Below are positions 4,350 to 63,990 of a stretch of DNA of 64,000 nt, one piece after another. The notes beneath the pieces are model-generated. The model was not told the origin of the DNA, made no database searches, and saw only the letters and a program-made list of their open reading frames with translations. The translations under genes were made by a program, and so were the position numbers. Source of the stretch: a virus; IMG/VR virus record IMGVR_UViG_3300028883_000044, positions 16,793-80,792 of that record. The stretch is one strand, 5' to 3'. The stretch's first letter is position 1. Each line of letters begins with the position of its first letter.

Positions 4350-4352
4350 TTA

Positions 4353-36386: not shown

Positions 36387-37079
36387 ATGAAATTATATCT
36401 TGATGATAATATAAAAATATTAAAAGAACTTTCAGGTATAGAAGTGGATTTAGTTTATGCTGATATGATATATGAAGATTCTAATTTTGAATGGGTAGAT
36501 TATTGTGAAAATATTTTAAAAGATTCTGGTATATTTATAGTTCAAACAGATTATCATACAGTAGCTGAAATGAAACTATATTTAGATAAGCTTTTCGGTA
36601 AAGATAATTTTATTAACTGGTTAATTTATAAACAGGAATGGGGAGGAGTATCTAAAAAATACTTTCCTAGAAAGCATGATGACATACTTGTTTATTATAA
36701 AGGAAATAGGTATAATTTTTACCCTGAGAGAATTATGATACCTAAAAAGACAGCAGGCACGGGATTAGATAAAAATAATAAAAGTTTAAAAATTCCCTGT
36801 GATGTCTTTGACGACCTAGGGAATTTTTCTACTATTGCAAAAGAAAGAGTTAAGTGGTATAATGGTAAAAACATTCAATGGCAAAAACCATTAAAGCTTA
36901 TGGAGAGGTTGTTATTACCTTTTACAATTGAAAATGATTTAGTATTAGACCCTTTTATGGGAAGTGGTACTACAGGTGTATGGTGTATAAATAACAATAG
37001 GAATTTTATTGGGATAGAAAATGATCCCGATGTTTATAAGATAGCAGAAGAAAGATTGAATAAAGGAAAGGAGTATTAA
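36387..37079 (+). CDS. DNA methyltransferase, beta class, atypical motif IV (DMIY)
   Basis: DLVYADMIY, QKPLKLMERL, LDPFMGSGTTG. Confidence 0.85.
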   Translation: MKLYLDDNIKILKELSGIEVDLVYADMIYEDSNFEWVDYCENILKDSGIFIVQTDYHTVAEMKLYLDKLFGKDNFINWLIYKQEWGGVSKKYFPRKHDDILVYYKGNRYNFYPERIMIPKKTAGTGLDKNNKSLKIPCDVFDDLGNFSTIAKERVKWYNGKNIQWQKPLKLMERLLLPFTIENDLVLDPFMGSGTTGVWCINNNRNFIGIENDPDVYKIAEERLNKGKEY

Positions 37080-43997: not shown

Positions 43998-44794
43998 TAT
44001 AGTAATAATCCATCTATTAATAAACTTTGTTTAAAATGTCCATGTATAAAATAATCATCATTTTTATAAGCATATATAAAAGATTTTAATTTAGATTCTA
44101 TCAATTCTGTATCTCCAAAAGATTTAATAATAGATTTCGTTAGATTTTTATTGTATATATTATGCGTAGCATTACTAACATTATTTAAAATAAGACTATC
44201 TAAATAATAATCAATGGTTTTATTTTCATTAATTAAAATATTAGTTGTGTAAAAAGCTCTATTTAAAACTAGTAGGAAATAGTATTGAACTAGTTTATTA
44301 AAAAAACTTGCTTTTTTAGTAAACATTAATCTTACAAAATTAAATCTATGTGTATACATATGTAATGAAGAAATTGATGAATATTCAGGTAATAAATAAT
44401 AACATTTTCTTCCATAAATTGTATTTATTTTTGTTTCACATAAAGTTGTATAAACTATATCAGGGAAAATATAATTACAAAGTTTTTCAAATTCTAATGA
44501 ATTACCCTTAGAAAGAAAATATAAATATATATCTTCTACATTTTCTTTTTTATATAGGTTAGTAGCATCTTCTCTAAAACCTCCTAAACAAACTTCACTA
44601 CAAGGACTGTCTACATAAAGTTTAAATTCTTCTAATGTTATTCCTGTATTGGGAACATTTTTTATAAACTTACATAAATCCTCTATTTCAGAATTATTAT
44701 AAATATCTGAAAGACGATAATTAATATAATCCGTCATAACTATGGTAATAGGTTTAGTAATTTCTTTTTTACTACCTGTTTGTAATAATTTCAT
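43997..44794 (-). CDS. Hypothetical protein
   Basis: ORF track. Confidence 0.6.
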   Translation of the reverse strand: MKLLQTGSKKEITKPITIVMTDYINYRLSDIYNNSEIEDLCKFIKNVPNTGITLEEFKLYVDSPCSEVCLGGFREDATNLYKKENVEDIYLYFLSKGNSLEFEKLCNYIFPDIVYTTLCETKINTIYGRKCYYLLPEYSSISSLHMYTHRFNFVRLMFTKKASFFNKLVQYYFLLVLNRAFYTTNILINENKTIDYYLDSLILNNVSNATHNIYNKNLTKSIIKSFGDTELIESKLKSFIYAYKNDDYFIHGHFKQSLLIDGLLL

Positions 44795-45446
44795 TTAGTT
44801 TCCCTTGTATAAATCTTATAAAGATTTTAGCAAACTTTTTATTACTATCTCTATATTCTAAATTATTTTGCATAAACTCTGGGTGAAATTGTGTAGTAAA
44901 TATTTTACTATTTTTTCCAAAGGACATTTCTGAAAAACCTCCGAAATAAGCTACCGTAAGTAACTCTTTCGCAGAATATTTAACAGCTTGATGATGTAAT
45001 GAATTAACTCTATCTAATTTTAAATTTTCATTTATATTAATATCTTTTGGATAATATAGTAAATGCTTACTAGGATGATTTTCTATATCCACATTTAACT
45101 TTCCGCCTAAAGAAGCATGTATAAGTTGATGACCTCTACAAATTCCAAAGATAAGTTTATTATATTTTAATGCAAGATATAAATTCTTTAAATCTATTGA
45201 GTCTCTTATAGTATTATAATGACCATTTTTTAGTGTATAATCTCCATGAATTGTTGGTGAAATATCTTCACCACCAGATAATACTAAAAGATCAATATTA
45301 TCTTTAAATTCTTCTTTATCAAAATTAGTATCTAATAAAGTAGAAGTAACAGGTATTCTAAATTCTTGATAAATAATATTTTCAATAAGTTTTTTAATTT
45401 CTCCATAAAAAGAAAGGGTTGAAAAACCTATACAAAGTTTATCCAT
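44772..45446 (-). CDS. Class I glutamine amidotransferase / peptidase C26 (PuuD-like)
   Basis: LSGGEDISP, GICRGHQ, VNSLHHQAV, QFHPE. Confidence 0.92.
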   Translation of the reverse strand: MDKLCIGFSTLSFYGEIKKLIENIIYQEFRIPVTSTLLDTNFDKEEFKDNIDLLVLSGGEDISPTIHGDYTLKNGHYNTIRDSIDLKNLYLALKYNKLIFGICRGHQLIHASLGGKLNVDIENHPSKHLLYYPKDININENLKLDRVNSLHHQAVKYSAKELLTVAYFGGFSEMSFGKNSKIFTTQFHPEFMQNNLEYRDSNKKFAKIFIRFIQGKLNEIITNR

Positions 45447-46371
45447 AAGTAACTGTATCATAAACCTTTCGCATAATACTTGCAGAATCATCTACCCTTA
45501 CTTCTAAAATATTTTTAATAGACGATTCTAAATAAGTTTCAATTAAAGGTCCAGAAAATTTTTCTAAATTATCTATTACCTTAAGTAAAAGACTTGTTGC
45601 TGTAAACATTTTTCCTATTTTTCCTAAATCTTTTATCCATAAGTTTGATGGAGTTCTATATTCAATACCTTTTATATTATCTTTTTTAGAATAAGTTTGA
45701 ATACGAAGTTTTCCGGGCAATCCATAAAATTCATGCCTATCTTTTTCTAAATAAACTTCCTCTTCAGTTTCCAAAGAAGATATAAAAGCATTTCCTAAAA
45801 TAATATCCATTAATCTTCCTATTTCAAAATATCTGTCAGTATCTATATTAGATATATGTATATGTCCCCCACCAAATCTTTTATTAATATTACTTGCATC
45901 AACTTCTTTAGAATAAAGTCCGCTATAAATATCTAAATCAGGGTCACACCCAAATCTTACACAATAGTTTGCATAACTATCTAAAACACCATCTATGTAA
46001 AGAATTTCTGGATTAAAAATTACTGCAGGTTTTATGGTAATACTATACCCAAATTTTCTTACAAGATTTTCTAAATGACCTATTGCATTAGATATCATAC
46101 TATAATATTCTAAAGTATCCTTTGTAGGTTTTGTATTAATTTCAAATGCCGCTCCATCTTCAATAATTTTATATGAAGATGTTTCCGCAAAAACTGGGTG
46201 TTTTTCTCTATCAGATTCTATTGAAGATGTAGTTAGATTTTTATTTAAATGTTTTGTAGTAAAAGGCATTCCCAACTTTCTTAATATAACTGGTGGAATA
46301 CATTCTCCTAAACTATTTACACAAAAAACTTCTGGATCAGAGCCTATTAAACTTTTTCTATTTACTGACAT
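45439..46371 (-). CDS. Phage phiEco32-like COOH-NH2 ligase type 2
   Basis: IGSDPEVF, EDGAAFEIN, FGCDPD, GGGHIH, FYG.PG..R, GIEYRTPSNLW. Confidence 0.85.
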   Translation of the reverse strand: MSVNRKSLIGSDPEVFCVNSLGECIPPVILRKLGMPFTTKHLNKNLTTSSIESDREKHPVFAETSSYKIIEDGAAFEINTKPTKDTLEYYSMISNAIGHLENLVRKFGYSITIKPAVIFNPEILYIDGVLDSYANYCVRFGCDPDLDIYSGLYSKEVDASNINKRFGGGHIHISNIDTDRYFEIGRLMDIILGNAFISSLETEEEVYLEKDRHEFYGLPGKLRIQTYSKKDNIKGIEYRTPSNLWIKDLGKIGKMFTATSLLLKVIDNLEKFSGPLIETYLESSIKNILEVRVDDSASIMRKVYDTVTYG

Positions 46372-46386
46372 ATTTTTTCTCCTATT

Positions 46387-46734
46387 TTATTCAACTAGTT
46401 TATTAAATTTATATGAAGTTACTTTTTTACCTTCAACTTCATATCTTTTTCTACACTTATCGCAAAAGATAGCATTTGAACTACTTATTTGAATATCTTC
46501 TAAAGAAAATAAATCACCACAACCTTCACATTTTATTAAAGCTTCTTTTTCTGAAAATGTTTTTCCACAATCTGGGCAATAAAAAATTAAATTTTTATTT
46601 TCAGAATTAGATTTAAAAATAATATCAATACATTTTAGACCATTTAATGTTAATTTAGGCGTTCCATAAAAATTAATAGATTCATTTAAATCAATTAGTG
46701 CAAAACTCTTTCTACATTCACTATGGTATATCAT
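46387..46734 (-). CDS. Cys-rich Zn-finger protein
   Basis: CPDC, CEGC, CDKC. Confidence 0.65.
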   Translation of the reverse strand: MIYHSECRKSFALIDLNESINFYGTPKLTLNGLKCIDIIFKSNSENKNLIFYCPDCGKTFSEKEALIKCEGCGDLFSLEDIQISSSNAIFCDKCRKRYEVEGKKVTSYKFNKLVE

Positions 46735-46747
46735 TTATAATTTTCTC

Positions 46748-47800
46748 CTATACAATTTCTACACTTGATATTTTAATATTATATCTATTTTCTATACCAC
46801 CAACTATTTCATCTACTGTCATAATATTATTCGTTAAAGATGTTTGATAAATTTCTAAAATAAGTTGTTTACTTTGTGCATATAAATTCTTTACAAAAAA
46901 ACCTAAATTCATATTATTATAACCTTTTATTTTATGAATATCTTTAACTTTACAGTTAGTATAATTAGTATAACTATTTAAAAAAGTTGTTAATAGTAAG
47001 TCTTTTTCACTTTTACTTACAGGAGTTATTATAGTAGGTATTGGAGGTTGTTCTTGAACATTTCTTCTATAAACAAATGTTTTAACTTTTTCAAAAGCTT
47101 TTTCTAATTGTAATTCTTGATAATTTCCAAAATTAGGATAATCAAGATATTTAAATAATCCCCTTATTGGAGATTGTATTACTAAATCTACCATATCTTT
47201 TATAAGAAGTTTTTCATGTGCATAAGCATAACCTATTAAAACTTCTTGCACAACAACTGCTGGATTTAATCCACTAGTTCCTGTAAAATTAAAATTATTT
47301 TTATAAGTATTATAAACTGCATAAAGAGTTTTTGCAGTTTGTCCAGAAATAAGCCCTAATCTAGAATCTATTGAAACTAATATTTTATCTTTATTATCTA
47401 TATGATTATAAATATAATTTTTATGGTTTTCATTATTTTCTAGTAAACTATATACATTAGAGTTAATTGTAGTAAACCATAATTCATTATCTTGATTATA
47501 ATAATATAAAAATACTCCCCCAGTTCGTATATTATAAAATACTTGTTTAATATCTACAGTTTGTTTATTCATAAATTTTTCTATAGCATATGTACCAGTA
47601 TTTATTTCAGAAGATAAGTAAGTTTTTGTAGTAAGTATTTCAAAAGTTTTTGTTGTAGGATTAGTTACATCAGCTTTGATAATATTATTTACTTTATCAA
47701 ATATTCTAAAATCTTTTGGACGTTCTATGAGACTAGTTTTAATTTCATCTTCTTCTAAATCTATTTTACCTAACTGTTTTACATAATTTTTATATTTCAT
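46748..47800 (-). CDS. Hypothetical protein
   Basis: 350-aa ORF. Confidence 0.65.
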   Translation of the reverse strand: MKYKNYVKQLGKIDLEEDEIKTSLIERPKDFRIFDKVNNIIKADVTNPTTKTFEILTTKTYLSSEINTGTYAIEKFMNKQTVDIKQVFYNIRTGGVFLYYYNQDNELWFTTINSNVYSLLENNENHKNYIYNHIDNKDKILVSIDSRLGLISGQTAKTLYAVYNTYKNNFNFTGTSGLNPAVVVQEVLIGYAYAHEKLLIKDMVDLVIQSPIRGLFKYLDYPNFGNYQELQLEKAFEKVKTFVYRRNVQEQPPIPTIITPVSKSEKDLLLTTFLNSYTNYTNCKVKDIHKIKGYNNMNLGFFVKNLYAQSKQLILEIYQTSLTNNIMTVDEIVGGIENRYNIKISSVEIV

Positions 47801-48545
47801 TTAAAATTCTTCCTTTTGAAGTTATTTGTATGAGATTGTTTCGTAATAAAAATGGTTCGATATAATTTTCAATAGTATTAGTAGGAACTCCTAAATATTT
47901 TGAGAGAGTTTTCAATGAAACAGCTTTATTATTTTCTAGTAATTCTAAATATTTATAATCTACATCAGTAAATCCATCTCTATATACACCAAAAGTATTT
48001 AAAACATCTATTGTAAAATCTAATGAAGGGTGTTTACCAGAATTCCTATAATAAACTTTTAATCTTTCTATGAGAGTTTTTACTACTCTAGGAACTCCTC
48101 TACTTCTATTAACAATTTCTTCTAAAATCTTATCATCATTAATTTTCAAAAAATGTTTAGCCATATTTTTTAAATCTTTTTCAGTATATTCTTCTATATA
48201 AAGAGACATACATCTATTAACAAGAGGTTCAGGCAAATCTCCGATTTCTGTTGTTAGTAGAAAGATTGTATATAATCTTTTATCCATTATATGATATAAA
48301 GTTTCTGGAGTTCTCATTAAATGTGCTTCATCTATAATCATTACAGAAGAAGTTTTAATAGGTTTATCTCCAAGAATCACTACATAATCTTTATTAGCTA
48401 ATTCTGCAGTATAAATTGCAAAAGTAGTTTTACCATAACCTGACCTACCTTGTAATAATATATTATGGTTAATATTCTTTGAAATATCCTGTGAAATATA
48501 ATACAATTCTGTTTTTAGTTTTTCTTGTCCAAATAATTTTACCAT
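47790..48545 (-). CDS. ruvB: RuvB-like AAA+ ATPase (shortened)
   Basis: FGQEKLK, GRSGYGKTT, IDEAH, SRGVPR, DGFTDVDYKYL, TIENYIEPFLL...IQITSKGR. Confidence 0.8.
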   Translation of the reverse strand: MVKLFGQEKLKTELYYISQDISKNINHNILLQGRSGYGKTTFAIYTAELANKDYVVILGDKPIKTSSVMIIDEAHLMRTPETLYHIMDKRLYTIFLLTTEIGDLPEPLVNRCMSLYIEEYTEKDLKNMAKHFLKINDDKILEEIVNRSRGVPRVVKTLIERLKVYYRNSGKHPSLDFTIDVLNTFGVYRDGFTDVDYKYLELLENNKAVSLKTLSKYLGVPTNTIENYIEPFLLRNNLIQITSKGRILNEI

Positions 48546-49270
48546 TAAATTTGCAAGTTCCTTTCGAAAAAATCTTTATATAGAAGTAAAGTTTCACCAT
48601 TTAAAGAGGGTGCAGTATTAACTTCTATAACTTTATACCCATAATTCTTTATAAAACCCATATCAACTCCCATAAATCTTAACGGTAAAACTTCGTAAAT
48701 CTTATCTACTAAGTTTATTGCTTTAGGAAATGCCTCAATATTTTTTCGTTTAAATGTATAATTATTTTTAGAATTTCTTATAGGATAAGTTTCTTCACTT
48801 TCTGAACCATCTTCTGGCATAAAAACTTTCTTAAAAACTTTCACAACTTTTCCATCAAGAACATGTACACGAATTTCGAATTTAAAATCGTAAAAATATG
48901 AATAATAATTATACCTATATTGATTAAATTCTTCTTCATTAGTTACTATTTTAATACCCTTTCCACATGAACTTCTAGTAAGTGTTCGTATAAAAACTGG
49001 ATAAGATTCTGGTAAAATATTTTTATATAATGTAACATTAGGAACTCCAGAAATTTCCATTAATTCTGAAAAGGAAACTTTAGAAGAAGCTTTTATAATT
49101 AAATTTTTATCATTTAATTCAGTATCCTGTAAATAATCTCCATTAGTATTTCCCCAACGAATTGCTGGAGAAATTATTTTAGGTTGTAAATAACAATTCA
49201 TATTTAATAAATTTGCTAATCTTCTTGCAGTAATAATACCACTCTTACTTGTTAAGATATACTTTTGCAT
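48545..49270 (-). CDS. ATP-grasp enzyme (phage RimK/YheCD-like)
   Basis: IRWGN, GKGIKIV, EIRVHV, IRNS, FMGVDMG, IEVNTAPSL. Confidence 0.85.
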   Translation of the reverse strand: MQKYILTSKSGIITARRLANLLNMNCYLQPKIISPAIRWGNTNGDYLQDTELNDKNLIIKASSKVSFSELMEISGVPNVTLYKNILPESYPVFIRTLTRSSCGKGIKIVTNEEEFNQYRYNYYSYFYDFKFEIRVHVLDGKVVKVFKKVFMPEDGSESEETYPIRNSKNNYTFKRKNIEAFPKAINLVDKIYEVLPLRFMGVDMGFIKNYGYKVIEVNTAPSLNGETLLLYKDFFERNLQI

Positions 49271-50379
49271 ATATTCTCCAAAGTTTCTTCACTATTTAAC
49301 ATGAATGGAAATTCCAAATTGTTTTCTTTATAAATATCTGATATTTTATTTTCACCTACTTTTTCTAAAATACTTTTCCAAGCTACTTTTTTACGATCTG
49401 TATTACCATCTATCATATTTTTTACTTCACTTTTAACAGTAATTGAAGAAATATTATTTAAATTTAATAGATTAATTTCTTGAGGAGTTTTTGTATTTTT
49501 AGATGCTATAAGTAATGCTATCATTACTTCTGGATAAGATAATCCACTTTCATATAATATATTTCCCAAACCTCTTTCATAGCTATTTATAGTAGATTCT
49601 GAATAAGTTACTCTAGCATATTCCTTTTTAGTTTCTTCTAAAGTATCTATTTTTATTAAATCTCCATCTTTAATTGTGAATATAGAATTTTCTTCCAAAC
49701 TATCTACTTTGTATTCTAAATTAATTATGCTGTTATTTCCCATTAAAAATAATTTAGATAAATCTAAAGTAGTAACTAAATCATCTTTTTCTGTATTAAT
49801 CATTAGATAATTTAATTTTTTTCCATCTTTAAATTCTATTGTAATTATTGCTTTGAATAAAGTTGCAGTTTTTCCTCTAGCAAAATATACTTTATTATCT
49901 TTTTTAGAGAAAATTCCAAAAGCAAATTTCCCATCATATATTTCATAAGTTTTCTTTAAAGCCTCTTCCATTGAGAGGTTATTAAGATTATTAGATAAGT
50001 TTTCTGCAAAATCTTCTGAATCAGTTTTTCCAGTAATAGTTGTTCCGTCTTTCTTTGTAAGAGTTCCATTATGAACAAGTATCAAATTATCTTTATCAAA
50101 AGGATGTGCATTTTCATCAGTAATAGTTGTTTTTAAAACGCTTGCTAATCTTGTATGTAATAAAATACTATAAGATTTATAAGTTAAATTTTGTAAAAAA
50201 GGTAAATAACTTTTAGAAGTAGTAGCTTTTTCTTTATCTTTATATAAACTTCCATCAGTTATATTATAAAAACCCCAACCATCTTTATTTTTAACACTAT
50301 TACTAAGCATCTGAAAATTAATTAATGTATTAACTACTGAAGATTTATTTTTACCTGAGATGTAAGTTATTTGGCACAT
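49252..50379 (-). CDS. Class II (Ntn) glutamine amidotransferase
   Basis: N-terminal MCQI, DGWG, HTRLAS, NAHPF, VHNGTL, TDSE. Confidence 0.9.
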   Translation of the reverse strand: MCQITYISGKNKSSVVNTLINFQMLSNSVKNKDGWGFYNITDGSLYKDKEKATTSKSYLPFLQNLTYKSYSILLHTRLASVLKTTITDENAHPFDKDNLILVHNGTLTKKDGTTITGKTDSEDFAENLSNNLNNLSMEEALKKTYEIYDGKFAFGIFSKKDNKVYFARGKTATLFKAIITIEFKDGKKLNYLMINTEKDDLVTTLDLSKLFLMGNNSIINLEYKVDSLEENSIFTIKDGDLIKIDTLEETKKEYARVTYSESTINSYERGLGNILYESGLSYPEVMIALLIASKNTKTPQEINLLNLNNISSITVKSEVKNMIDGNTDRKKVAWKSILEKVGENKISDIYKENNLEFPFMLNSEETLENICKSIS

Positions 50380-51502
50380 TTTCTATACTAAATTCTCCTC
50401 TATTATGTATATCAATATAGTTAGGTTCTTTAACTAAAATACCTTCAGTTAAACTTTTAGGTTCATAATCTCCATTAAAATATCTTGAATCTGGATTTTT
50501 AAGTTGCATATGGGAGATTACATATTCTTTTTCTATAACAGGATATTCTGAATAATCAAACAAATCTAATATTCTAGAAACTAAAGTAGGAAACTTTGTT
50601 TCATACTCATCTAAAATGTATTCTAAAATCTCTCTAGAATTATAAAGAGGATTATAAACAGAGTTTATAGCGGAAAAACCTAAGTTTTTTAGTTCGCTAT
50701 AACTTGTCGATAACATTTTATCTGTAGTTGCTTGACACAAAAGTATTATAGCTCTTATGTCTAAATCATTTAGAGTTTGATTAAAAACTCTATATTCCAA
50801 TGTTCCATATTTATTTAATGAATAAAGATTTAACCAGTGGTATCTTACAGGATGATATTTCGTTCCTGTGAATTTAATATCACCATATCTTTCGAAAAAA
50901 TCATCTAAAGTTTCTGATAATATTAAATCAAATGTATTAAATATCTGAGCTTTCTTACCTGAACGAGTTTTAATAACTGATGGACCATAAAGTGTTAAAG
51001 GTCTACAATAAGTAAAGTCATTATAAATTCCTCTATGATAATCTTGTAAAGAACCTATTCTATAAAATATAGATTCAACTCTAGTAGCCCATCTTATAAT
51101 TGATTTTAAATTCTTTAAATTAATATTCTTTCCAATATTAATATGAATATGAACCGAACTTCTTTTATTATCTATATAAGATTCTACACTAGATAATATT
51201 TTACAAACTTTCTCTAAATTATCTATAAAATGTTTAGAAGTTGGATTACTAGGTTGAGAAATAATTTCTCCACCAAAAGTATTATAAGAAAACTTATCAT
51301 AAATAGGTGAATTAAAATTTAAATTAATATCTGAATAAAAGTTCTTTTGTGAGAAAGAAGTTTTCTTTGTTTCTACACTAGCATCTCTAACTATATTCCA
51401 ATTATTATTTTGAATATCTTGTTTAATTTTATTTGTTAATAAAGTATTTTGAAGTTCTATTTCAACTCCTACAGTATCTATTGCAGGATAATCTAAATTC
51501 AT
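50351..51502 (-). CDS. Putative amidoligase (Amidoligase_2, GCS/GS-like)
   Basis: TVGVEIE, WNIVRDASV, EIISQP, SVHIHI, RYHWLNL...GTLEYRVF. Confidence 0.85.
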   Translation of the reverse strand: MNLDYPAIDTVGVEIELQNTLLTNKIKQDIQNNNWNIVRDASVETKKTSFSQKNFYSDINLNFNSPIYDKFSYNTFGGEIISQPSNPTSKHFIDNLEKVCKILSSVESYIDNKRSSVHIHINIGKNINLKNLKSIIRWATRVESIFYRIGSLQDYHRGIYNDFTYCRPLTLYGPSVIKTRSGKKAQIFNTFDLILSETLDDFFERYGDIKFTGTKYHPVRYHWLNLYSLNKYGTLEYRVFNQTLNDLDIRAIILLCQATTDKMLSTSYSELKNLGFSAINSVYNPLYNSREILEYILDEYETKFPTLVSRILDLFDYSEYPVIEKEYVISHMQLKNPDSRYFNGDYEPKSLTEGILVKEPNYIDIHNRGEFSIENVPNNLHLR

Positions 51503-57998: not shown

Positions 57999-58357
57999 AA
58001 TTTTCTCCTTTTAAAGGTTTTTAAATAAAATAAATGATAAAATAGCAATAAATAGTAAAAGTATCATCTGAGAATTTTCCATTATAATTTCCTTTCATAG
58101 ATTTTCGGGGTTAAAACATTATTATAATATTATATAAGTAACTATAGTAATAAATACATAGAATAAACTATTTTTATTATCTATAAAAATCTCCTTTCGT
58201 TATCGATTAAAATAAATTAAATACAAAAAGTTCCCTAGAAAGTATTGTTAAATACAATATAACTAGAGAACTTTATAGTATAAGAATAGTATAGTATAGA
58301 AAGAATATAGTATATAAAGTTTATAATATTCTTTAATAGACACTACCCTTAAGCAAT

Positions 58358-58386
58358 ATTATACCACATAATAAACTTCGAGACAA
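58358..58386 (-). promoter_or_regulatory. Leftward sigma70 promoter for the AT-rich block
   Basis: TTGTCT-17-TATAAT with TG extension. Confidence 0.65.
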
Positions 58387-59007
58387 ACTTTTTTTAATCT
58401 ATACGAAAGTCAATTTTGAAAGAAAATCTGTTACTATCTCCTAAAGAAACTTTATTTAGAACGAAGTTATAAATCAGAAAAAAAAGTTAAGTAAAATCTT
58501 ATGATAAAAAAGATAATCTTTAGTAGTTACTTCGCTAATAGCAAAGATTATTATAGAGATTATCTTTCAAGGGAAAAGTTTTTACTAAAGATTATACAAA
58601 TAAAAATAAAAAAGTTTCAAAGATTATTATATAAAAATAAATATTCTTCTAAAGAAAATATAAAAGATTTATAAAATTCAGTAAAGAAACTTTCGCAGTT
58701 ACTTTGGTAGAAAGATACTTTCTTTAAAAGAAACTTTTTTATGTATAAACTTTCTTATGTAGTGAGGACATAACTTTTATTTGATACTGAGTACGCACAT
58801 GGGGATTACGAACTGAGTACGCACAGCCTCCCCTATAAAGGTATATTAAATGAAGAAATGTACGCACATGCTCAATGAAATTGTTCTAACATATACTAGA
58901 GAAAAACTGAGTACGCACTAGGCTTGTATAGATATATATTAAATGAAGGCTTGTACGCACATGCTTACGGAAATTGTTAGGACAAAAAGTCATTGTACGG
59001 AGGGTGG

Positions 59008-59036
59008 TTGTATTTGTTAGCACTGACGGGTATAAT
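59008..59036 (+). promoter_or_regulatory. Cassette 1 promoter with GT-N4-AC in spacer
   Basis: TTGTAT-tt-GTTAGCAC-7 nt-TATAAT. Confidence 0.75.
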
Positions 59037-59187
59037 TTAATTAATGAAGGCGATAGCTATGTGCACGAATTTCTTGTGCAGATGGCTATTTTATTTATGC
59101 ACTAGGAGGTGCTTATAAGACCATTATTTTCTGTTAGTCCAAATTTTTTATGTCTTACAAAAAATCAATTAGATACAAGGAGTTTAT

Positions 59188-59526
59188 ATGGCACAAGAAA
59201 AAGAAAGTGAATACAATATCTTTGTCCTCGTTCAAAATGATGAGGTACAGAGATTAGAGTCTGAACAGGGTGGTATAGTTACTACACCCTATGGGAAGTG
59301 GTACGCCACTTTCATTGAGTACGGGAATAATGGTTTGAACATTTCCGGACCAGTTCTCCTTAAGCAAAATGGTAAGGCACTCAGAGGGTTCGTGCAGTTT
59401 GATACATTACTGAAGCCCGTAGCAATTCGTGCATACCAAACACTATCAGAACAAGAATATGTAGTTCCAGTTCTTAGAGCAGGAAACAATAAAACTATGT
59501 CCTTCTGGATGAAAAAGGATAACTAG
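59188..59526 (+). CDS. Hypothetical protein (cassette 1)
   Basis: AAGGAG RBS. Confidence 0.75.
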   Translation: MAQEKESEYNIFVLVQNDEVQRLESEQGGIVTTPYGKWYATFIEYGNNGLNISGPVLLKQNGKALRGFVQFDTLLKPVAIRAYQTLSEQEYVVPVLRAGNNKTMSFWMKKDN

Positions 59527-59544
59527 AAAAGGAGTTAGTACAAA

Positions 59545-60081
59545 ATGGCTACAAATGAAAAAACAGAAAAAACTGAACAAAAAGCAAGTTCAACCAAGAA
59601 AGTGGAGTTCCCATCAATTCCTCTACCTATACTTGCTAGCGGTGGTGCACTCGAGGGGTGGGGTGCTGACTTAAAAACTTTGCAAAAGTTAGAAATAAGT
59701 AAGGACAATGGTAAAACTTGGGTTGCTATAAAAATTAAGGACAAAGGTGAAGGACAAAACTTACATCCTGAACAAAAGAAAGTTTTGTTGTTTACGGCAC
59801 TGGCAGTTCTAACAGGTAGTAGAGCGGATAGAGGCTGGGCGTACAAGATATGGTTGGCTGAACAATCTAAAGTAGTTCTGCAGTATTTTTCAAACTTACG
59901 CGTTCGTGTCAGCAGTCCGAACTCGGCAGTGCCGGGTTCTGATTTTAAGGTGACCGAGGCGTGTGCGTTCGCACAAGCAATGGCACCCATACTGAAACGC
60001 AGTAAGGACACATATCCACCTCGTTCACAAACGAGGTCGAAATCGAACGAAGAGGAGAGTTGGGACTACTCCATTGTATAA
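59545..60081 (+). CDS. Hypothetical protein (cassette 1)
   Basis: AAGGAG RBS. Confidence 0.75.
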   Translation: MATNEKTEKTEQKASSTKKVEFPSIPLPILASGGALEGWGADLKTLQKLEISKDNGKTWVAIKIKDKGEGQNLHPEQKKVLLFTALAVLTGSRADRGWAYKIWLAEQSKVVLQYFSNLRVRVSSPNSAVPGSDFKVTEACAFAQAMAPILKRSKDTYPPRSQTRSKSNEEESWDYSIV

Positions 60082-60111
60082 AGTTTAATAGATCAAGTCC
60101 CAAATAGATCA

Positions 60112-60216
60112 GAGGACAGGACACAGTTAGTCCTGTCCTCAAAATTTTTTGGGTTAAGCACTTTGCCATAGTGTTTAACCTTTCTCGTTATGCTAGCACA
60201 ACCCTGAGTGTTAGCA
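60112..60216 (+). ncRNA. Three tandem stem-loops (structured 3' UTR or small RNA)
   Basis: Stems 60112-60140 (11 bp), 60152-60180 (11 bp), 60191-60216 (9 bp). Confidence 0.45.
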
Positions 60217-60224
60217 CCCCTGTC

Positions 60225-60261
60225 AAGTAGGCACTCAATTTTTGAGTGCCTACTTTTTTTT
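60225..60261 (+). terminator. Rho-independent terminator, cassette 1
   Basis: AAGTAGGCACTCAA-ttt-TTGAGTGCCTACTT + T-run. Confidence 0.85.
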
Positions 60262-60547
60262 ATGTCCCATAATTTTTTAGAACCGAGTACGCACAAGAAC
60301 CAGTTACCATTTTCAGTAAGGACAAGGTTTCAGTTACTACAAAATGTCCCTACAAAAAATTGCGTGTATCTTAAAAATGCAAGTGTTACTCAGTACGCAC
60401 ATGGTGTTCGAACAGTATATGTAGGAACTCAGAAGTGTTATAAACTGAGTACGCACAGGGAAGTGTATAAAATACATATTAAATGGAGAAGTGTGCGAAC
60501 ATGCTTGGTGAAATTGTGCCTACTCCAATTCTATGTACGCTAGTCCC

Positions 60548-60576
60548 TTGTAAATGTACGCACTATATGGTATAAT
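60548..60576 (+). promoter_or_regulatory. Cassette 2 promoter with GT-N4-AC in spacer
   Basis: TTGTAA-at-GTACGCAC-7 nt-TATAAT. Confidence 0.8.
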
Positions 60577-60627
60577 TTAGGTAGGGAAAAACCGTTCATC
60601 TGAACGAGATTAGAAAGGAAGGACATA

Positions 60628-61656
60628 ATGGCAAGAAGGAACTTAAAGCGGTATCAGACCGTAATTAAAGAAGGGGACATAAAGCTAGAGGGTGAACAGC
60701 TATTGTATGAAAGTTACAGTGCTAGCACACCAAATGGTAAGGACAAACGCTTGCAAGAGTTACTGAAAGAAAAGTACGGACAGGGTTCTGTTATAGGACC
60801 ACGCAGGGAAGTTGGCACTGGTTTTAAGCCACTAGTGTCAGAATTTCGTGCCTCCATATGGAGATGGTGCGAACTATTTCCAGAGGGCACACATGCAATA
60901 AGTATGAAAACTCTAATGGAAGGTAGGAACTTCAGTGAGTACAGGGATGAAGTTATACCTTTCATTCCGTTTGTACTGAAAGAGGGGGAGGAGTTAGAAC
61001 AAAGAGACCCCATCCATACAAGGATTTTGTGGACCATAGCATGTTTCTGGTATCACAAGGGAAACGGTCCTAAACCAGACGGTAGGCGTGCACCCAGAAA
61101 CAGGAAAAGCACTACTGATAATTGGATGGACACTCTAAAATGTCCTGTTTGTAATGTCATGTACACACTGACTAAACATGATAGGACAACAAAATCCAAG
61201 GAACAAATAATGTTGGACTACTCTACATGGTTAGCCAAACACAGTAAAACGTGCCAGTCCGAAAGAGAGTTCAGACAGAAAGTTTTAAGGCAAGCCAAAA
61301 AGAATCGTGAGTACAGAAAAGAGCAAGAGGACAAAAGAAATGCTATAGTCCAGCGGGATAAGGTATTAGCACGGAAGGCAGAGTTAGAACGGGGTATCAT
61401 AGAGAGGGACATAGAAATTCTAGCCTTACGACAAAAAGTGCAGGACACAGAACACTTTGAAACTCGTTTTGAGTCCCACATGAGGTATGCGGCTGAACAG
61501 TCGCAACTACAAGCAAAAATTCGTGCTAACATGGCAAAGAAGTTAGCACAAAAAAGAAAGGCTAACCCACCAGTTACCCTTGAGGACAAAGTAGAAAAAG
61601 CCTTACGAGATATGGTAGAGCACAACAAGCGTCGTTCAAAAAAGAAGAAGAAGTAG
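60628..61656 (+). CDS. Basic protein with CxxC...HxxxC Zn motif and coiled coil (cassette 2)
   Basis: CPVC...LAKHSKTC; Lys/Arg-rich tail; AAAGGAAGG RBS. Confidence 0.75.
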   Translation: MARRNLKRYQTVIKEGDIKLEGEQLLYESYSASTPNGKDKRLQELLKEKYGQGSVIGPRREVGTGFKPLVSEFRASIWRWCELFPEGTHAISMKTLMEGRNFSEYRDEVIPFIPFVLKEGEELEQRDPIHTRILWTIACFWYHKGNGPKPDGRRAPRNRKSTTDNWMDTLKCPVCNVMYTLTKHDRTTKSKEQIMLDYSTWLAKHSKTCQSEREFRQKVLRQAKKNREYRKEQEDKRNAIVQRDKVLARKAELERGIIERDIEILALRQKVQDTEHFETRFESHMRYAAEQSQLQAKIRANMAKKLAQKRKANPPVTLEDKVEKALRDMVEHNKRRSKKKKK

Positions 61657-61677
61657 AACAAGAATCCCAGTAACAAC

Positions 61678-61706
61678 AAAACCTCTGTTTACACAGGGGT
61701 TTTTTG
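61678..61706 (+). terminator. Rho-independent terminator, cassette 2
   Basis: AAAACCTCTGT...ACAGGGGTTTTTT. Confidence 0.8.
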
Positions 61707-61979
61707 TTTGGACAGTATTCAATTTTGATACTGAGTACGCACAATAATTTTCAATTTCAATAGAGTGTCCGTTACTGTTTAGTTGTCAGTACAGAGAACT
61801 GGGGGGTTTAGTAAACTCTAAATCAGAACAAGCTTTAATAGAAGATACCTAGTACGCACAATATGGTCCTTACATAGGAGTAAGGGAAATACTGAGTACG
61901 CACACCGCCACATTTCGCTTAAAACACTATTTAAATGAAGGTATGTGCGAACATGCTTGGAGAAATTGTCCTAACTAAC

Positions 61980-62008
61980 TTGACTTTGTAGGAACTGCGT
62001 GGTATAAT
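61980..62008 (+). promoter_or_regulatory. Cassette 3 promoter with GT-N4-AC in spacer
   Basis: TTGACT-tt-GTAGGAAC-7 nt-TATAAT. Confidence 0.8.
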
Positions 62009-62073
62009 ATAGATGACAGGGGAGTTCGTGTCCCCACTAAAATTTTAGTCCTAACAAGAAAGGGAGTGTAAAC

Positions 62074-62400
62074 ATGCTGGAAAAAGACTTACTTAGTATT
62101 AGTATGGTTGCTGCAGAAGGAGTGTCCTACGTGAGGGTATTCGTTCCCAGTAACCGCTCGTTTGTCCTAGCGGAGAAACGATGTCAGCGTTTAGAAAAAT
62201 TTCTAAACGACGAATGGGAGTGGGCACAAGCCGAGCTTACCTCTGATAAAGAGGGTGGCACACTAAGGTTAAAAGTGGCACCCGAATTGCTTATAAGGGT
62301 AACGACAGTCTTGTGCAAAGAGGTAGGCGTCATAACATGCAACCTTCCGTGTGCTCAAAGGGAAGGTGAGGAAGATTTAAATAGAGGTTGGAATGACTAA
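62074..62400 (+). CDS. Hypothetical protein (cassette 3)
   Basis: AAGGGAG RBS. Confidence 0.7.
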   Translation: MLEKDLLSISMVAAEGVSYVRVFVPSNRSFVLAEKRCQRLEKFLNDEWEWAQAELTSDKEGGTLRLKVAPELLIRVTTVLCKEVGVITCNLPCAQREGEEDLNRGWND

Positions 62401-62662
62401 AACCGTTATAACATACACAATGCGTGCTAACGACGACGCATCAATCCTAATAAAAGTTCCTGCAAAATTTTCAGTTTCCACAGAAAAAAATGTTAGGAAT
62501 ATTTTTGAAGAGATATACAAGGATATCGACCCCACAAAAGGGTGGTATGTGAACGAAACTTTAGGTGTAATAGAGTTTCGTGTCCCAGAAGAAATTTTAG
62601 TTGAAACATATAACCAAGTGTTCGACTTGGTTATAGATAGTGTCTACGGAGGTGGTGTGTAG
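62393..62662 (+). CDS. Hypothetical protein, apparent paralog of 62074-62400
   Basis: GAGG RBS; aligned motif pattern. Confidence 0.7.
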   Translation: MTKTVITYTMRANDDASILIKVPAKFSVSTEKNVRNIFEEIYKDIDPTKGWYVNETLGVIEFRVPEEILVETYNQVFDLVIDSVYGGGV

Positions 62663-62689
62663 AGACATAATAATATCGTTCAGACATAA

Positions 62690-62719
62690 AAAGAGAGGGC
62701 TAACAACCCTCTCTTTGTT
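62690..62719 (+). terminator. Rho-independent terminator, cassette 3
   Basis: AAAGAGAGGG...CCCTCTCTTTGTT. Confidence 0.8.
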
Positions 62720-62945
62720 GTTAAATAGAATTCAGTATCTACATAATTTCAGTTAGGACAATATGTATACACATAGCTTCCCGTTAGGACATTCAATTTC
62801 TAAAGCATACTTAGTACGCACAAGATTCCCCTAAAATTAAAATAAAGGCTAAAAGTAAGGACAGCTTCTAAAAAGAAACTGAGTACGCACACGCCCGTAT
62901 TAAGAATCATAATCGTGCACACTAGAATACTATGTACGCTATGTC

Positions 62946-62974
62946 TTGACATTGTACCTACTATTTGATATACT
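62946..62974 (+). promoter_or_regulatory. Cassette 4 promoter with GT-N4-AC in spacer
   Basis: TTGACA-tt-GTACCTAC-7 nt-TATACT. Confidence 0.8.
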
Positions 62975-63027
62975 TATCTTATCTCATTAACTGCCTTTAA
63001 GGCAGATTTAACAGAAAGGTTAAAATA

Positions 63028-63288
63028 ATGCAAAGAGGTACAAAATTAGAAAAGTGGGACAAAAAGAGAATCGTGAACGATTTTCTCATAGAAAATTTCG
63101 TAAAGGTGCTCCCTTATAGGGGGTGCTCACTTATAAACGATTGTCCACAACACTACTCCATGCAAGACAAGCTTTTACAAGCGGCACGCACTTATCATAT
63201 GCAAACTACTACTAAACCGTTCGCAAATAACACTGCGATAGAAAATTACGGATACGTCCTAACTATGAAAAGGTTAGGGTTATGCTAA
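63028..63288 (+). CDS. Hypothetical protein (cassette 4)
   Basis: AAAGGT RBS. Confidence 0.65.
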   Translation: MQRGTKLEKWDKKRIVNDFLIENFVKVLPYRGCSLINDCPQHYSMQDKLLQAARTYHMQTTTKPFANNTAIENYGYVLTMKRLGLC

Positions 63289-63572
63289 ATACAGTGCACA
63301 CCCCTCTAGTGGAAATAGTCAAGGCATATTATGGTTCAGCCTTGGAATTCATTGTAGACAAGAATCCCTGTTTAGTCAGGGATTCAGTTAGACCTATAGG
63401 CATTTGGGTTTACTCAGAAGATTGTACCTGTGAAATGCTTATAGAATATACCATATTTATGTTAGACCAAAAATATAGGTATACTCAGGAGTTTATGTTT
63501 GGAAAGAAGGGGAAAGGTGGAAAAGGATTAAGAGTTCCTATAAGAATCCCACTATCCTTACTGACAGACTAG
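63282..63572 (+). CDS. Hypothetical protein (cassette 4)
   Basis: Overlaps upstream stop. Confidence 0.65.
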   Translation: MLNTVHTPLVEIVKAYYGSALEFIVDKNPCLVRDSVRPIGIWVYSEDCTCEMLIEYTIFMLDQKYRYTQEFMFGKKGKGGKGLRVPIRIPLSLLTD

Positions 63573-63581
63573 TGTAAACAT

Positions 63582-63611
63582 AAATCCCCTTGTAAGGGCA
63601 AGGGGATTTTG
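63582..63611 (+). terminator. Rho-independent terminator, cassette 4
   Basis: AAATCCCCTTG...CAAGGGGATTTT. Confidence 0.8.
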
Positions 63612-63806
63612 TATTTAAAAGAAAACTCAATTTAGACAAAGCTATTTGTTAGGACAATTACAAAATTCAATTTACAAACTTTTTTTGTTAGGACAAAAAC
63701 GTTCCCACAAAATTCAATTTTGGAACTATTTCCGTTACTACTATAATCGTGCTAACAAACCCTTAACGGCGTTACATTGTGATTTTTTTCACAAGCGGTA
63801 ATTTGT

Positions 63807-63883
63807 GCTGGTGGCTGGTAGCTGGTGGCTGGTGGCTAGTAGCTGGTGGCTGGTAGCTGGTGGCTGGTAGCTGGTGGCTGGTA
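63807..63883 (+). repeat. 11 x 7-bp tandem repeat GCTGGT(G/A) containing six GCTGGTGG octamers
   Basis: Octamers at 63807, 63821, 63828, 63842, 63856, 63870; one unit is GCTAGTA; followed by (TA)n. Confidence 0.95.
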
Positions 63884-63961
63884 TATATATATATAAATGT
63901 AGAAAGAAAGAAAGAGAGGGGAAAAATATAAATATATATAAAAAGTGATACATGAAATCGT

Positions 63962-63990
63962 TTGTATATACTTGCAATTAATGATATACT
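63962..63990 (+). promoter_or_regulatory. Promoter for next unit beyond window
   Basis: TTGTAT-17-TATACT. Confidence 0.6.

What the first reader, a model, noticed from the sequence alone, without database searches (positions are those of the whole stretch)
58786..63990. Array of self-contained gene cassettes separated by conserved repeat modules
Seen four times: 2-3 co-oriented ACTGAGTACGCAC-type repeats, a 47-bp box (three of four units; tandemly duplicated with ~93-bp period in the first), sigma70 promoter, small leader hairpin (59053-59089, ~60593-60606, ~62019-62035, ~62991-63005), RBS, 1-2 unknown genes, intrinsic terminator. A fifth promoter opens at the window edge. The genes are GC-richer than the rest. 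Established analogue: T4-type PeSL promoter/stem-loop elements that shuffle modules by recombination. Inference: an exchangeable array of early host-takeover or anti-defence genes.
Basis: partly seen in the sequence, partly recalled or inferred. Interest (0 to 1): 0.8.

Follow-up and report, generated by a model that had tools for sequence, protein, structure and literature searches.

The report
Repeat-flanked orphan-gene cassettes in a phage
An uncultured marine-sediment phage carries five self-contained orphan-gene units, each with its own host-type promoter and terminator. Four share an upstream module packed with one repeated 8-14-base site, a larger variant of the promoter/stem-loop cassette arrays already known from T4-type phages.

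Summary
AGTACGCAC occurs 11 times (0.06 expected), always on the + strand, only at 58.79-62.89 kb and nowhere else in the genome. Four units share a composite module: 2-3 14-nt repeats, a 57-nt box in three units (tandemly doubled in the first), and an extended -10 sigma70-type promoter with a repeat-like site in its spacer. Each unit then has a leader, a strong SD, 1-2 genes and a strong terminator.

The contig closes on itself (~80.6 kb), so the fifth promoter at the window edge drives a 204-aa gene at the contig start. Genes of units 1-4 have GC3 0.34-0.43 against 0.10-0.20 elsewhere. The island nevertheless shares the genome's near-total avoidance of GCGC, GGCC and CGCG, and an independent assembly spans it at uniform depth, so it is not a chimera.

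The eight proteins are unrelated to each other and match no known family. Two relatives (terminase 52-56% identical) carry a single, unrelated promoter-gene-terminator unit at the same junction between the lysis genes and the early genes.

Best reading: a host-polymerase-driven accessory island whose repeats are operators of one regulator. PeSL-like shuffling is plausible but unshown: there are no close relatives, no junctions in contigs, and at most 20 nt of shared exact identity. This scan has recorded similar arrays in other phages.

The parts
58786..58919 (+). Unit 1 repeats: three 14-nt ACTGAGTACGCACA-type sites (58786-58799, 58812-58825, 58906-58919)
58835..58984 (+). Unit 1: two tandem copies of the 57-nt box (58835-58891, 58928-58984; 93-nt period; the two 94-nt repeat units are about 72% identical)
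59008..59036 (+). P1: TTGTAT-17-TATAAT, with a core-like site GTTAGCAC in the spacer
59052..59090 (+). Unit 1 leader: long imperfect hairpin followed by a U-run (possible attenuator or processing site) in a ~145-nt leader
   Evidence: z -2.55
59188..59526 (+). c1a, 112 aa, orphan (only itself among 5.8 billion proteins)
59545..60081 (+). c1b, 178 aa; small uncharacterised family (13 representatives, 29-37% id; motifs LATGG..L..W..DL and TDRG.AY..W)
60112..60255 (+). Unit 1 terminators: hairpins 60112-60140 and 60225-60255, each followed by a U-run
   Evidence: z -5.6, -7.2
60282..60457 (+). Unit 2 repeats: three 14-nt sites (60282-60295, 60388-60401, 60444-60457), with GT[TA]AGGACA-type motifs between them
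60468..60524 (+). Unit 2 box (57 nt; core variant GTGCGAAC)
60548..60576 (+). P2: TTGTAA-17-TGgTATAAT, with an exact GTACGCAC in the spacer (60556) and GTACGCTA at -44
60593..60606 (+). Unit 2 leader mini-hairpin (weak, not better than shuffles)
   Evidence: z -0.86
60628..61656 (+). c2, 342 aa, orphan; CxxC...H..C motif and basic coiled-coil tail, seen by eye
61678..61703 (+). Unit 2 terminator
   Evidence: z -3.8
61730..61904 (+). Unit 3 repeats: three 14-nt sites (61730-61743, 61847-61860, 61891-61904)
61920..61976 (+). Unit 3 box (57 nt)
61980..62008 (+). P3: TTGACT-17-TGgTATAAT
62019..62035 (+). Unit 3 leader hairpin GGGGA...UCCCC (weak)
   Evidence: z -0.68
62074..62662 (+). c3a (108 aa, 62074-62400) and c3b (89 aa, 62393-62662); orphans, overlapping by 8 nt
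62690..62716 (+). Unit 3 terminator
   Evidence: z -4.35
62809..62891 (+). Unit 4 repeats: two 14-nt sites (62809-62822, 62878-62891); no box
62946..62974 (+). P4: TTGACA-17-TGaTATACT; GTACGCTA at -44 as in P2
62991..63024 (+). Unit 4 leader: hairpin 62991-63005 plus a second hairpin presenting the SD in its loop. The leader is homologous to unit 5 (79% id before the ATG), with the first hairpin's sequence replaced but its pairing kept
63028..63572 (+). c4a (86 aa, 63028-63288) and c4b (96 aa, 63282-63572); orphans, overlapping by 7 nt
63582..63609 (+). Unit 4 terminator
   Evidence: z -4.6
63640..63760 (+). Unit 5 upstream: repeated TTCAATTT / GTTAGGACA / CGTTACT elements shared with units 1-4, plus a promoter-like TTGGAA-16-TATAAT (63720-63747)
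   Evidence: (D11, D15, D18)
63777..63794 (.). Palindrome TTGTGA-N6-TCACAA, one of only three in the genome, all bracketing unit 5
63807..63895 (+). Tandem array (GCTGGTR)x11 followed by (TA)7. Both assemblies break here, and the two contig ends differ by one TA
   Evidence: (D3)
63962..63990 (+). P5: TTGTAT-17-TGaTATACT. The unit continues across the circular junction: leader hairpins, 204-aa gene at L001:212-826, terminator at about L001:840-897

Best explanation
This is a ~6.4-kb accessory-gene island: window 58.78-64.0 kb plus the first ~0.9 kb of the contig across the circular junction. It belongs to a ~80.6-kb tailed phage from marine sediment that is probably virulent.

The island consists of five autonomous transcription units read by the host sigma70/sigmaA-type RNA polymerase. 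Each has a near-consensus promoter (extended -10 in P2-P5), a structured leader, a strong SD, one or two orphan genes and a strong intrinsic terminator. It lies between the end of the lysis cassette and the divergent start of the AT-rich small-gene block, and is transcribed against both.

Units 1-4 share one composite upstream module whose conserved kernel is the near-palindromic core GTACGCAC. The core occurs 4-6 times per promoter, at about -130, -87 and -44, and inside the -35/-10 spacer at -23.5. I read these as operators of one so far unidentified DNA-binding protein that controls the four promoters together, most likely shutting them off after an early burst.

The leader hairpins probably stabilise the mRNAs or set translation. 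The terminators insulate the units and keep transcription out of the convergent lysis genes.

Shown: anatomy, enrichment, strand bias, foreign composition, orphan status, and the variable junction in relatives. Inferred: promoter activity, timing, the regulator, and any host-takeover or anti-defence role.
For: Motif enrichment and strand bias: 11 vs 0.06 expected; core 14:0, with 1 copy in the other 74 kb.

Conservation pattern: modules have diverged to 19-72% identity per segment, yet the 14-nt site and core stay exact, and the longest shared exact stretches (15-20 nt) are mostly these sites themselves. That pattern indicates selected binding sites rather than passive duplication remnants.

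Site placement: a core-like site sits in the spacer of P1-P4, exact in P2.

Unit components: promoters 10-11 of 12 hexamer matches (P2-P4) with 17-nt spacers and TG extensions. Terminators z -3.8 to -7.2. The U4 and U5 leaders are near-identical, except that 5 of 6 stem pairs of the first hairpin changed on both sides while keeping pairing.

Island-specific control: the leftward promoters in the divergent region and other strong sigma70 promoters in the genome lack the motif.

Lifestyle: no integrase, resolvase, HTH_3 or sigma region 2. The phage carries PolA, DnaB, RecA, RNR and ThyX, a virulent-type gene set.

Relatives G001 and G002 have one TTGACA-promoter / leader / GC-richer orphan / terminator unit at the same junction and in the same orientation.
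Against: There are no transcript data of any kind. The host is unknown.

No DNA-binding domain was found in the island or in ten neighbouring early ORFs, so the regulator is hypothetical.

The site positions are shared by descent among modules, so their helical phasing (21, 42 and 42-44 nt) is not independent evidence.

The U2 and U3 hairpins are no better than shuffles.

Strong sigma70-type promoters also occur in the replication arm and at the head of the late arm, so promoter type alone does not prove early timing.
Confidence: 0.6

Rival explanations
1. PeSL-like shuffling. The main significance of the repeated modules would be as portable homology that lets recombination insert, delete and swap orphan genes within and between phages.
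For: The modules are homologous while the eight proteins show no similarity to one another.

P4 looks mosaic: its -44 region matches P2, while its -10 and leader match P5 (79% id vs 27-42% for other pairs).

Unit 1 has a tandem 93-nt duplication and unit 4 has lost the box.

The same junction holds unrelated cassettes in G001 and G002. c1b relatives are absent from the phage's relatives. The phage encodes a RecA-like protein, a Cas4-like nuclease and an exonuclease.
Against: No junction or circle was seen, but only contigs were available and these hide rare variants.

No relative is close enough to show breakpoints (terminase at most 56% identical). The repeat and box occur nowhere else in IMG/VR or JGI metagenomes.

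The longest exact identity between modules is 15-20 nt. From my own knowledge this is at or below the length needed for efficient RecA-type recombination. The duplication in unit 1 is old (72% identity).
Confidence: 0.25
2. Tandem promoters of two classes. The promoter-proximal 14-nt site plus a TATAAA-like hexamer 8 nt downstream would be a second promoter, dependent on an activator or alternative sigma. It would lie upstream of the sigma70 promoter, so that the cassettes are expressed in two phases.
For: In U1a, U1b and U2 the site is followed after 8 nt by TATAAA or TATAGA, and at 62809 after 9 nt by TAAAAT (read). This geometry resembles activator-box promoters such as T4 MotA-dependent ones (my own knowledge).

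There is a sub-threshold sigma-region-4-like ORF in the replication arm.
Against: The distal copies lack the hexamer. U3 and U4 have other spacings (14 and 6 nt). No phage RNA polymerase or clear sigma factor was found. There are no TSS data.
Confidence: 0.12
3. The bicistronic units (c3a/c3b, c4a/c4b, perhaps c1a/c1b) are toxin-antitoxin-like or exclusion/defence modules, autoregulated through the repeats.
For: They are small, translationally coupled pairs (8- and 7-nt overlaps), each with its own promoter flanked by repeated near-palindromic sites.
Against: There is no match to any Pfam toxin or antitoxin family or to PADLOC. Unit 2 is monocistronic (342 aa). By eye, none of the cassette proteins has a transmembrane segment.
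Confidence: 0.07
4. Lysogenic-conversion morons of a temperate phage, expressed from the prophage.
For: The position between the lysis genes and early genes, the opposite orientation, the presence of own promoters and terminators, and the deviant composition all fit the moron definition (PMC4378225).
Against: No tyrosine or serine recombinase and no HTH_3 repressor were found. The genome has a large replication and nucleotide-metabolism gene set.
Confidence: 0.04
5. Assembly chimera: a GC-richer foreign fragment joined to an AT-rich phage.
For: There is a sharp GC step at 58.8 kb, and the contig breaks in a repeat.
Against: An independent Logan assembly gives one 80,640-bp contig at depth 42.8 that spans the island and closes the circle.

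The island shares the genome's avoidance of GCGC (0 vs 7.5 expected), GGCC (0/7.5), CGCG (1/7.5) and GATC (2/19.7).

The unit 4 and 5 leaders are homologous across the GC boundary. Relatives have the same kind of island.
Confidence: 0.01

Closest known systems
PeSL (promoter-early stem-loop) regulatory cassettes in hyperplastic regions of T4-type phages (Arbiol et al. 2010, PMC2839356; Comeau et al. 2014, PMC4122927)
   Same: Repeated regulatory elements containing strong sigma70-like promoters and stem-loops. They sit in front of orphan genes in a variable region, so unrelated genes share homologous control DNA.
   Different: This is not a T4-type phage. The modules are 100-250 bp and dominated by multiple copies of a near-palindromic site plus a 57-nt box, rather than an AT-rich tract. 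The terminator hairpins are separate, unit-specific and 90-330 nt upstream of the promoter. The conserved hairpins are in the transcribed leader. Recombination at the elements is not shown here.
Morons of lambdoid and other phages (definition as given in PMC4378225, citing Juhala et al. 2000 and Hendrix et al. 2000)
   Same: A coding region with its own promoter and terminator, inserted between conserved modules, with nucleotide composition different from its neighbours and content that varies among relatives.
   Different: Here five units lie in a row, four under a common repeat module, in a phage without lysogeny genes. Classical morons are single, unrelated insertions without shared control DNA.
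SPO1 host-takeover module (Stewart et al. 1998; summarised in PMC6873191)
   Same: A cluster of mostly small genes of unknown function arranged in many short operons. Each operon has a strong host-type early promoter and a strong ribosome-binding site.
   Different: There is no sequence relation to SPO1 gp37-60 (no PHROG hit). Location in a terminal redundancy cannot be tested from contigs. There are 8 genes here rather than 26, and the genes are GC-richer than the genome.
Multi-site phage transcription regulators and Aca-type repressors of strong early anti-defence promoters (my own knowledge; not checked in papers here)
   Same: Several copies of one short site around and inside strong early promoters, implying coordinated repression or switching.
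   Different: No regulator gene is identifiable here. The sites are co-oriented and spread over ~250 bp, unlike the one or two inverted repeats of Aca operators.

Membership tests
PeSL cassettes | Strong sigma70-like early promoter within the repeated element | tested here: met
   P1-P5 have 17-nt spacers; P2-P4 score 10-11 of 12 with a TG extension. This is a sequence match only; activity was not measured.
PeSL cassettes | Stem-loop forming part of the promoter motif (between or overlapping -35/-10, in the AT-rich tract, or just before +1) and acting as terminator/attenuator for upstream transcription | tested here: not met
   The terminators are separate, non-homologous hairpins 90-330 nt upstream of the promoters. 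The recurrent hairpins lie downstream of the predicted start, in the leader.
PeSL cassettes | [quoted passage not shown] | tested here: not met
   The upstream modules have GC 0.33-0.38 against 0.21 in the adjacent divergent region. They consist of GTACGCAC sites and the box.
PeSL cassettes | Located mainly in hyperplastic regions, immediately upstream of ORFans | tested here: met
   Seven of the eight proteins have no detectable homologue or family match (four checked in the large protein database or the exhaustive library, the others in family libraries only), and one belongs to a small uncharacterised family. The junction content differs in G001 and G002.
PeSL cassettes | Recombination between copies: indels between near-identical phages, mini-circles | tested here: inconclusive
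   There were no joints in the contigs of two runs, and contigs cannot show rare forms. No close relative exists in the collections searched.
Moron | Gene flanked by its own promoter and factor-independent terminator | tested here: met
Moron | Nucleotide composition unlike the adjacent genes | tested here: met
   GC3 is 0.34-0.43 (units 1-4) against 0.10 in the adjacent block and 0.20 in the late and replication arms. Unit 5 (0.24) does not meet this feature.
Moron | Inserted between two genes that are adjacent in related phages | tested here: inconclusive
   The relatives are distant and themselves carry one different unit at this junction. No relative with an empty site was found.
SPO1-type host-takeover module | Many short operons of small early genes with strong host-type promoters and RBS | tested here: met
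   Five units and eight genes with AGGAG-type SDs.
SPO1-type host-takeover module | Lies in the terminal redundancy and is expressed first | not testable with these tools
   Only contigs were available, so neither termini nor a coverage step can be seen.
SPO1-type host-takeover module | Products inhibit host processes | not tested
   This needs expression in a host.
Integron cassette array | Integron integrase, attC sites, promoterless cassettes | tested here: not met
   There is no tyrosine recombinase. The repeats are direct, not attC-like imperfect inverted repeats. Every unit has its own promoter.

The most novel reading that the evidence does not exclude
The GTACGCAC module would be a dedicated 'plug-in' control system. 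On this reading the phage keeps copies of one promoter-operator module as landing pads, behind which foreign, GC-richer genes are captured by recombination. The captured genes are thereby enrolled in a single co-regulated early regulon. It would be an integrase-free gene-capture platform, with its own regulator encoded in or near the island.
Probability: 0.12. Interest if true: 0.65.

Novelty: new variant of a known kind. Interest (0 to 1): 0.4.

Why it matters
Arrays of self-promoted orphan genes are where phages keep host-takeover and anti-defence functions, so they are a practical hunting ground for new inhibitors.

This example comes from a phage lineage with no cultured member. It adds a feature not described for PeSLs: a multi-copy, near-palindromic site that is exactly conserved while the rest of the module has drifted, including one copy inside the promoter spacer. 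That points to a dedicated regulator of an accessory-gene regulon.

It also shows that the junction between the lysis genes and the early genes is a conserved accessory-gene slot in this lineage: one unit in each of two relatives, five here.

The value is limited by the absence of a host, of transcripts, of close relatives and of any functional hint for the proteins. This scan has already recorded comparable promoter/hairpin cassette arrays in several other phages.

Tried and rejected
Relatives of the repeats:
- The 14-mer in IMG/VR gave only single chance hits.
- The box pattern gave 0 hits in IMG/VR and 0 in JGI metagenomes.
- The two-site pattern in metagenomes returned only unrelated tandem repeats and chance pairs; none had the extended motif.
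- blastn of the island against 50,697 phage genomes found nothing.

Proteins:
- Pfam, PHROGs and PADLOC gave nothing significant.
- c2, c5 and c1a find only themselves among 5.8 billion proteins.
- The search for related loci with c2, c1b and c5 found nothing.
- The c1b family has no PDB or PHROG match, is not in cultured phages, and was not retrievable from IMG/VR or GTDB genomes. Three members looked up sit on 1.4-2.8-kb contigs.
- AlphaFold single-sequence models of c1a and c1b were unusable (pLDDT 37.5 and 42.2), so no fold search was run.
- ESM Atlas returned no usable hit.

RNA and reads:
- Rfam gave nothing above noise.
- No RNA holder was listed among sequencing runs.
- No joints were found in contigs.

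Chi hypothesis: the 7-mer array contains GCTGGTGG six times. The apparent 28:1 enrichment of this octamer in relatives turned out to be in-frame Ala-Gly-Gly codons (GCT-GGT-GGn) at unrelated positions, so the idea was dropped.

Box as a small ORF: an ATG frame (MK.C[TA][HN]ML.EIV.T) is open in all four copies. However, variable sites fall 6/3/6 over the codon positions, there is no SD, and the frames end at different places. It is not coding-like.

Other:
- No regulator was found: no DNA-binding domain in ten adjacent early ORFs.
- G003 and G004 were too divergent at this locus to compare.

Full report
**Where the region lies.** The window is bases 16793-80792 of an 80,792-bp IMG/VR contig. 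The first 167 bases of the contig repeat its last 169 (98.8%, one TA indel). An independent Logan assembly of run X1 (marine sediment, probably the source sample) gives a single 80,640-bp contig at depth 42.8. That contig covers 57.5-64.0 kb without a difference in the island and closes the circle inside the 7-mer repeat. The genome map is therefore a circle of ~80.6 kb, and the 'fifth promoter at the window edge' continues into the contig start. A second study (X2, also marine sediment) holds three identical pieces of 219, 167 and 130 nt.

AGTACGCAC occurs 11 times, always on the + strand, between 58790 and 62890. That compares with 0.06 expected, and there are no copies elsewhere in the genome. 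An unbiased k-mer survey makes the core GTACGCAC the top island word: 14 forward, 0 reverse, and 1 in the remaining 73.7 kb.
- The 57-nt box has four copies, two of them in tandem (93 nt apart) in unit 1 and none in unit 4.
- The promoters are P1 59008-59036, P2 60548-60576, P3 61980-62008, P4 62946-62974 and P5 63962-63990. All have 17-nt spacers, and P2-P5 have a TG extension.
- Each unit ends in a strong hairpin plus U-run (dG -15.5 to -21.5 kcal/mol, z -3.8 to -7.2).
- The leader hairpins are convincing for units 1, 4 and 5 (z -2.6 to -2.9) but not for units 2 and 3.
- The leaders of units 4 and 5 are almost identical (79% over the 33 nt ending at the ATG). The exception is the first hairpin, which has a different sequence with pairing kept in 5 of 6 pairs. 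A second hairpin presents the SD in its loop.

**Composition.** Genes of units 1-4 have GC 0.37-0.45 and GC3 0.34-0.43. The late and replication arms have GC3 0.20, and the adjacent small-gene block 0.10. The unit 5 gene has GC3 0.24. The island nevertheless shares the genome's restriction-type avoidance: GCGC 0 observed vs 7.5 expected, GGCC 0/7.5, CGCG 1/7.5 and GATC 2/19.7, against 0/36.6, 1/36.6, 0/36.6 and 41/201 elsewhere. Together with the independent assembly, this rules out a chimera. It also indicates that the island has evolved under the same host pressures as the rest of the phage.

**The genes.** The eight proteins show no similarity to one another and match no Pfam, PHROG or PADLOC family. 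c2 (342 aa), c5 (204 aa) and c1a (112 aa) find only themselves among 5.8 billion proteins. An exhaustive HMMER search places c1b (178 aa) in a small family of ~190-aa proteins (13 representatives, 29-37% identity). That family has no solved structure or PHROG, is absent from the phage's relatives, and the three members looked up sit on very short contigs. The structure models were unusable.

**Genome context.**
- The phage encodes a terminase, portal, tail proteins and a collagen-like fibre, family-A DNA polymerase, DnaB and RNR.
- It also encodes RecA, a Cas4-like nuclease, an exonuclease, a DNA methylase, a primase and ThyX.
- A GH25 endolysin is preceded by a PAS-domain protein.
- There is no tyrosine or serine recombinase, no HTH_3 repressor and no sigma region 2. 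Only a sub-threshold sigma-region-4-like hit appears in a conserved 134-aa ORF. A virulent lifestyle is therefore likely.
- The island lies between the end of the lysis cassette and the divergent start of an AT-rich minus-strand block, and is transcribed against both.
- Strong sigma70-type promoters also occur elsewhere, for example a perfect divergent pair at 22.83/22.92 kb and several in the replication arm. The island's promoter class is therefore the phage's normal one. Only the upstream module is special.

**Relatives.** There is no cultured relative. IMG/VR holds phages with 50-56% identical terminase. Two of these, G001 (78.8 kb) and G002 (87.2 kb, complete), are syntenic over the late and replication arms. 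Neither has a homologue of contig region 68.3-80.8 kb plus 1-1.1 kb. At the same junction and in the same orientation:
- G001 has ~900 bp of short tandem repeats, a TTGACA promoter, a leader, one GC-richer 126-aa orphan and terminators.
- G002 has TTGACA-17-TATAAT, a ~190-nt GC-rich leader, a GC 0.50 orphan, a tiny membrane gene and terminators.

The junction is thus a conserved slot for self-promoted accessory genes, and the window's phage holds an expanded version. Unit 5 (tandem repeat, purine tract, promoter, native GC) resembles the G001 unit in architecture and may be the older resident.

**What the repeats are.** The modules have drifted: segment identities are 19-72%, the two halves of the unit 1 duplication are 72% identical, and the longest exact stretch between any two modules is 15-20 nt. 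Yet the 14-nt site is exact or nearly exact in all 11 copies. The core GTACGCAC is a near-palindrome (GTRC.GYAC; its reverse complement differs at 2 positions). Core-like versions also occur in the box, at -44, and inside the spacer at -23.5 of P1-P4.

Perfect conservation of short words in a diverged background is the signature of selected protein-binding sites. A site in the spacer suggests repression. I therefore read the module as an operator array for one regulator of units 1-4. The regulator itself is not identified.

A second possibility is that the proximal site plus a TATAAA-like hexamer 8 nt downstream forms a factor-dependent upstream promoter. TSS mapping would decide between the two.

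**Recombination.** Several features fit PeSL-type shuffling: homologous control DNA in front of unrelated genes, the mosaic P4 (upstream like P2, -10 and leader like P5), the duplication in unit 1 and the missing box in unit 4. However, nothing shows that shuffling is ongoing. No junctions appear in contigs, no close relatives exist, and the uninterrupted homology is very short.

**Comparison with what is known.**
- PeSLs, as defined in PMC2839356 and PMC4122927, share the concept but not the anatomy. Three defining features fail here or cannot be tested (see Membership tests).
- The units satisfy the moron definition (PMC4378225), except that they share control DNA and sit in a phage without lysogeny genes.
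- The layout resembles the SPO1 host-takeover module (PMC6873191), without any sequence relation.
- This scan has already recorded comparable promoter/hairpin cassette arrays in Felix O1-like, phi92-like and other phages.

**Verdict.** This is a real, well-delimited feature. It is a new variant of a known kind, of moderate interest, with its function and dynamics still to be shown.

Noticed in passing
window 63807-63895 (also contig 1-65): An array of 11 units of the 7-mer GCTGGTR is followed by (TA)7 and a purine tract, ~80 nt upstream of P5. Both assemblies break here, and the two contig ends differ by one TA unit, which hints at length heterogeneity. G001 has ~900 bp of GGCTATCCA(TCCA) repeats at the equivalent place. 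Function is unknown (origin, spacing-dependent promoter control or other). The E. coli Chi octamer inside the array seems incidental.
   Followed up: partly
window 63777-63794; L001:909-926 and L001:995-1012: The genome holds only three TTGTGA-N6-TCACAA (Rex/CRP-type) palindromes, and they bracket unit 5: one upstream of the 7-mer array and two between the unit 5 terminator and the endolysin stop.
   Followed up: partly
L001:~975-1050; G001 (L138 ~4340-4440, minus strand); G002 (L130 ~12560-12640, minus strand): A conserved non-coding element lies between the island and the lysis-gene end in all three phages, despite ~50% protein identity. It consists of a C-run, then 45-55 nt, then GTRTACCCYARRGAC. 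It is a candidate packaging, terminus or origin site.
   Followed up: partly
window 44772-51502, minus strand: The AT-rich block encodes a peptidase C26/GATase, a phiEco32-like COOH-NH2 ligase, an ATP-grasp protein, a GATase_6 and an amidoligase_2. This is a peptide- or metabolite-ligase cluster conserved in G001 and G002. A RuvB-like AAA+ protein sits within it.
   Followed up: no
whole genome: GCGC, GGCC and CGCG are almost absent (0, 1 and 0 observed for 36.6 expected each), and GATC and ACGT are 4-5-fold depleted. This is strong restriction avoidance, and a DNA methylase gene lies at 36387-37079.
   Followed up: no
window 58850-58891, 58943-58984, 60483-60524, 61935-61976: The 57-nt box keeps an ATG-initiated frame (MK.C[TA][HN]ML.EIV.T) in all four copies, about 10 nt after a TATAAA-like hexamer. 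The substitution pattern is not coding-like, so this is probably chance, but a near-leaderless micro-ORF is not excluded.
   Followed up: partly
window 58000-58780: A 780-bp divergent region with GC 0.21 carries several AAAGATTAT-type repeats and leftward sigma70-like promoters (58386, 58620, 58653). It has none of the island motifs.
   Followed up: no
window 59699-61583 (coding) and the intergenic regions: GT[TA]AGGACA has 10 of its 11 forward copies in the island. AGGACA is enriched there on the + strand, partly as in-frame Lys-Asp (AAG-GAC) codons inside genes. This is a second island-specific word of unknown meaning.
   Followed up: partly
L130:13330-13525, minus strand (G002): The G002 cassette has a ~190-nt G-rich leader and an inverted repeat (GCCTCT...AGAGGC) overlapping its -35 and spacer. 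That arrangement is closer to a classical PeSL than anything in the window.
   Followed up: no
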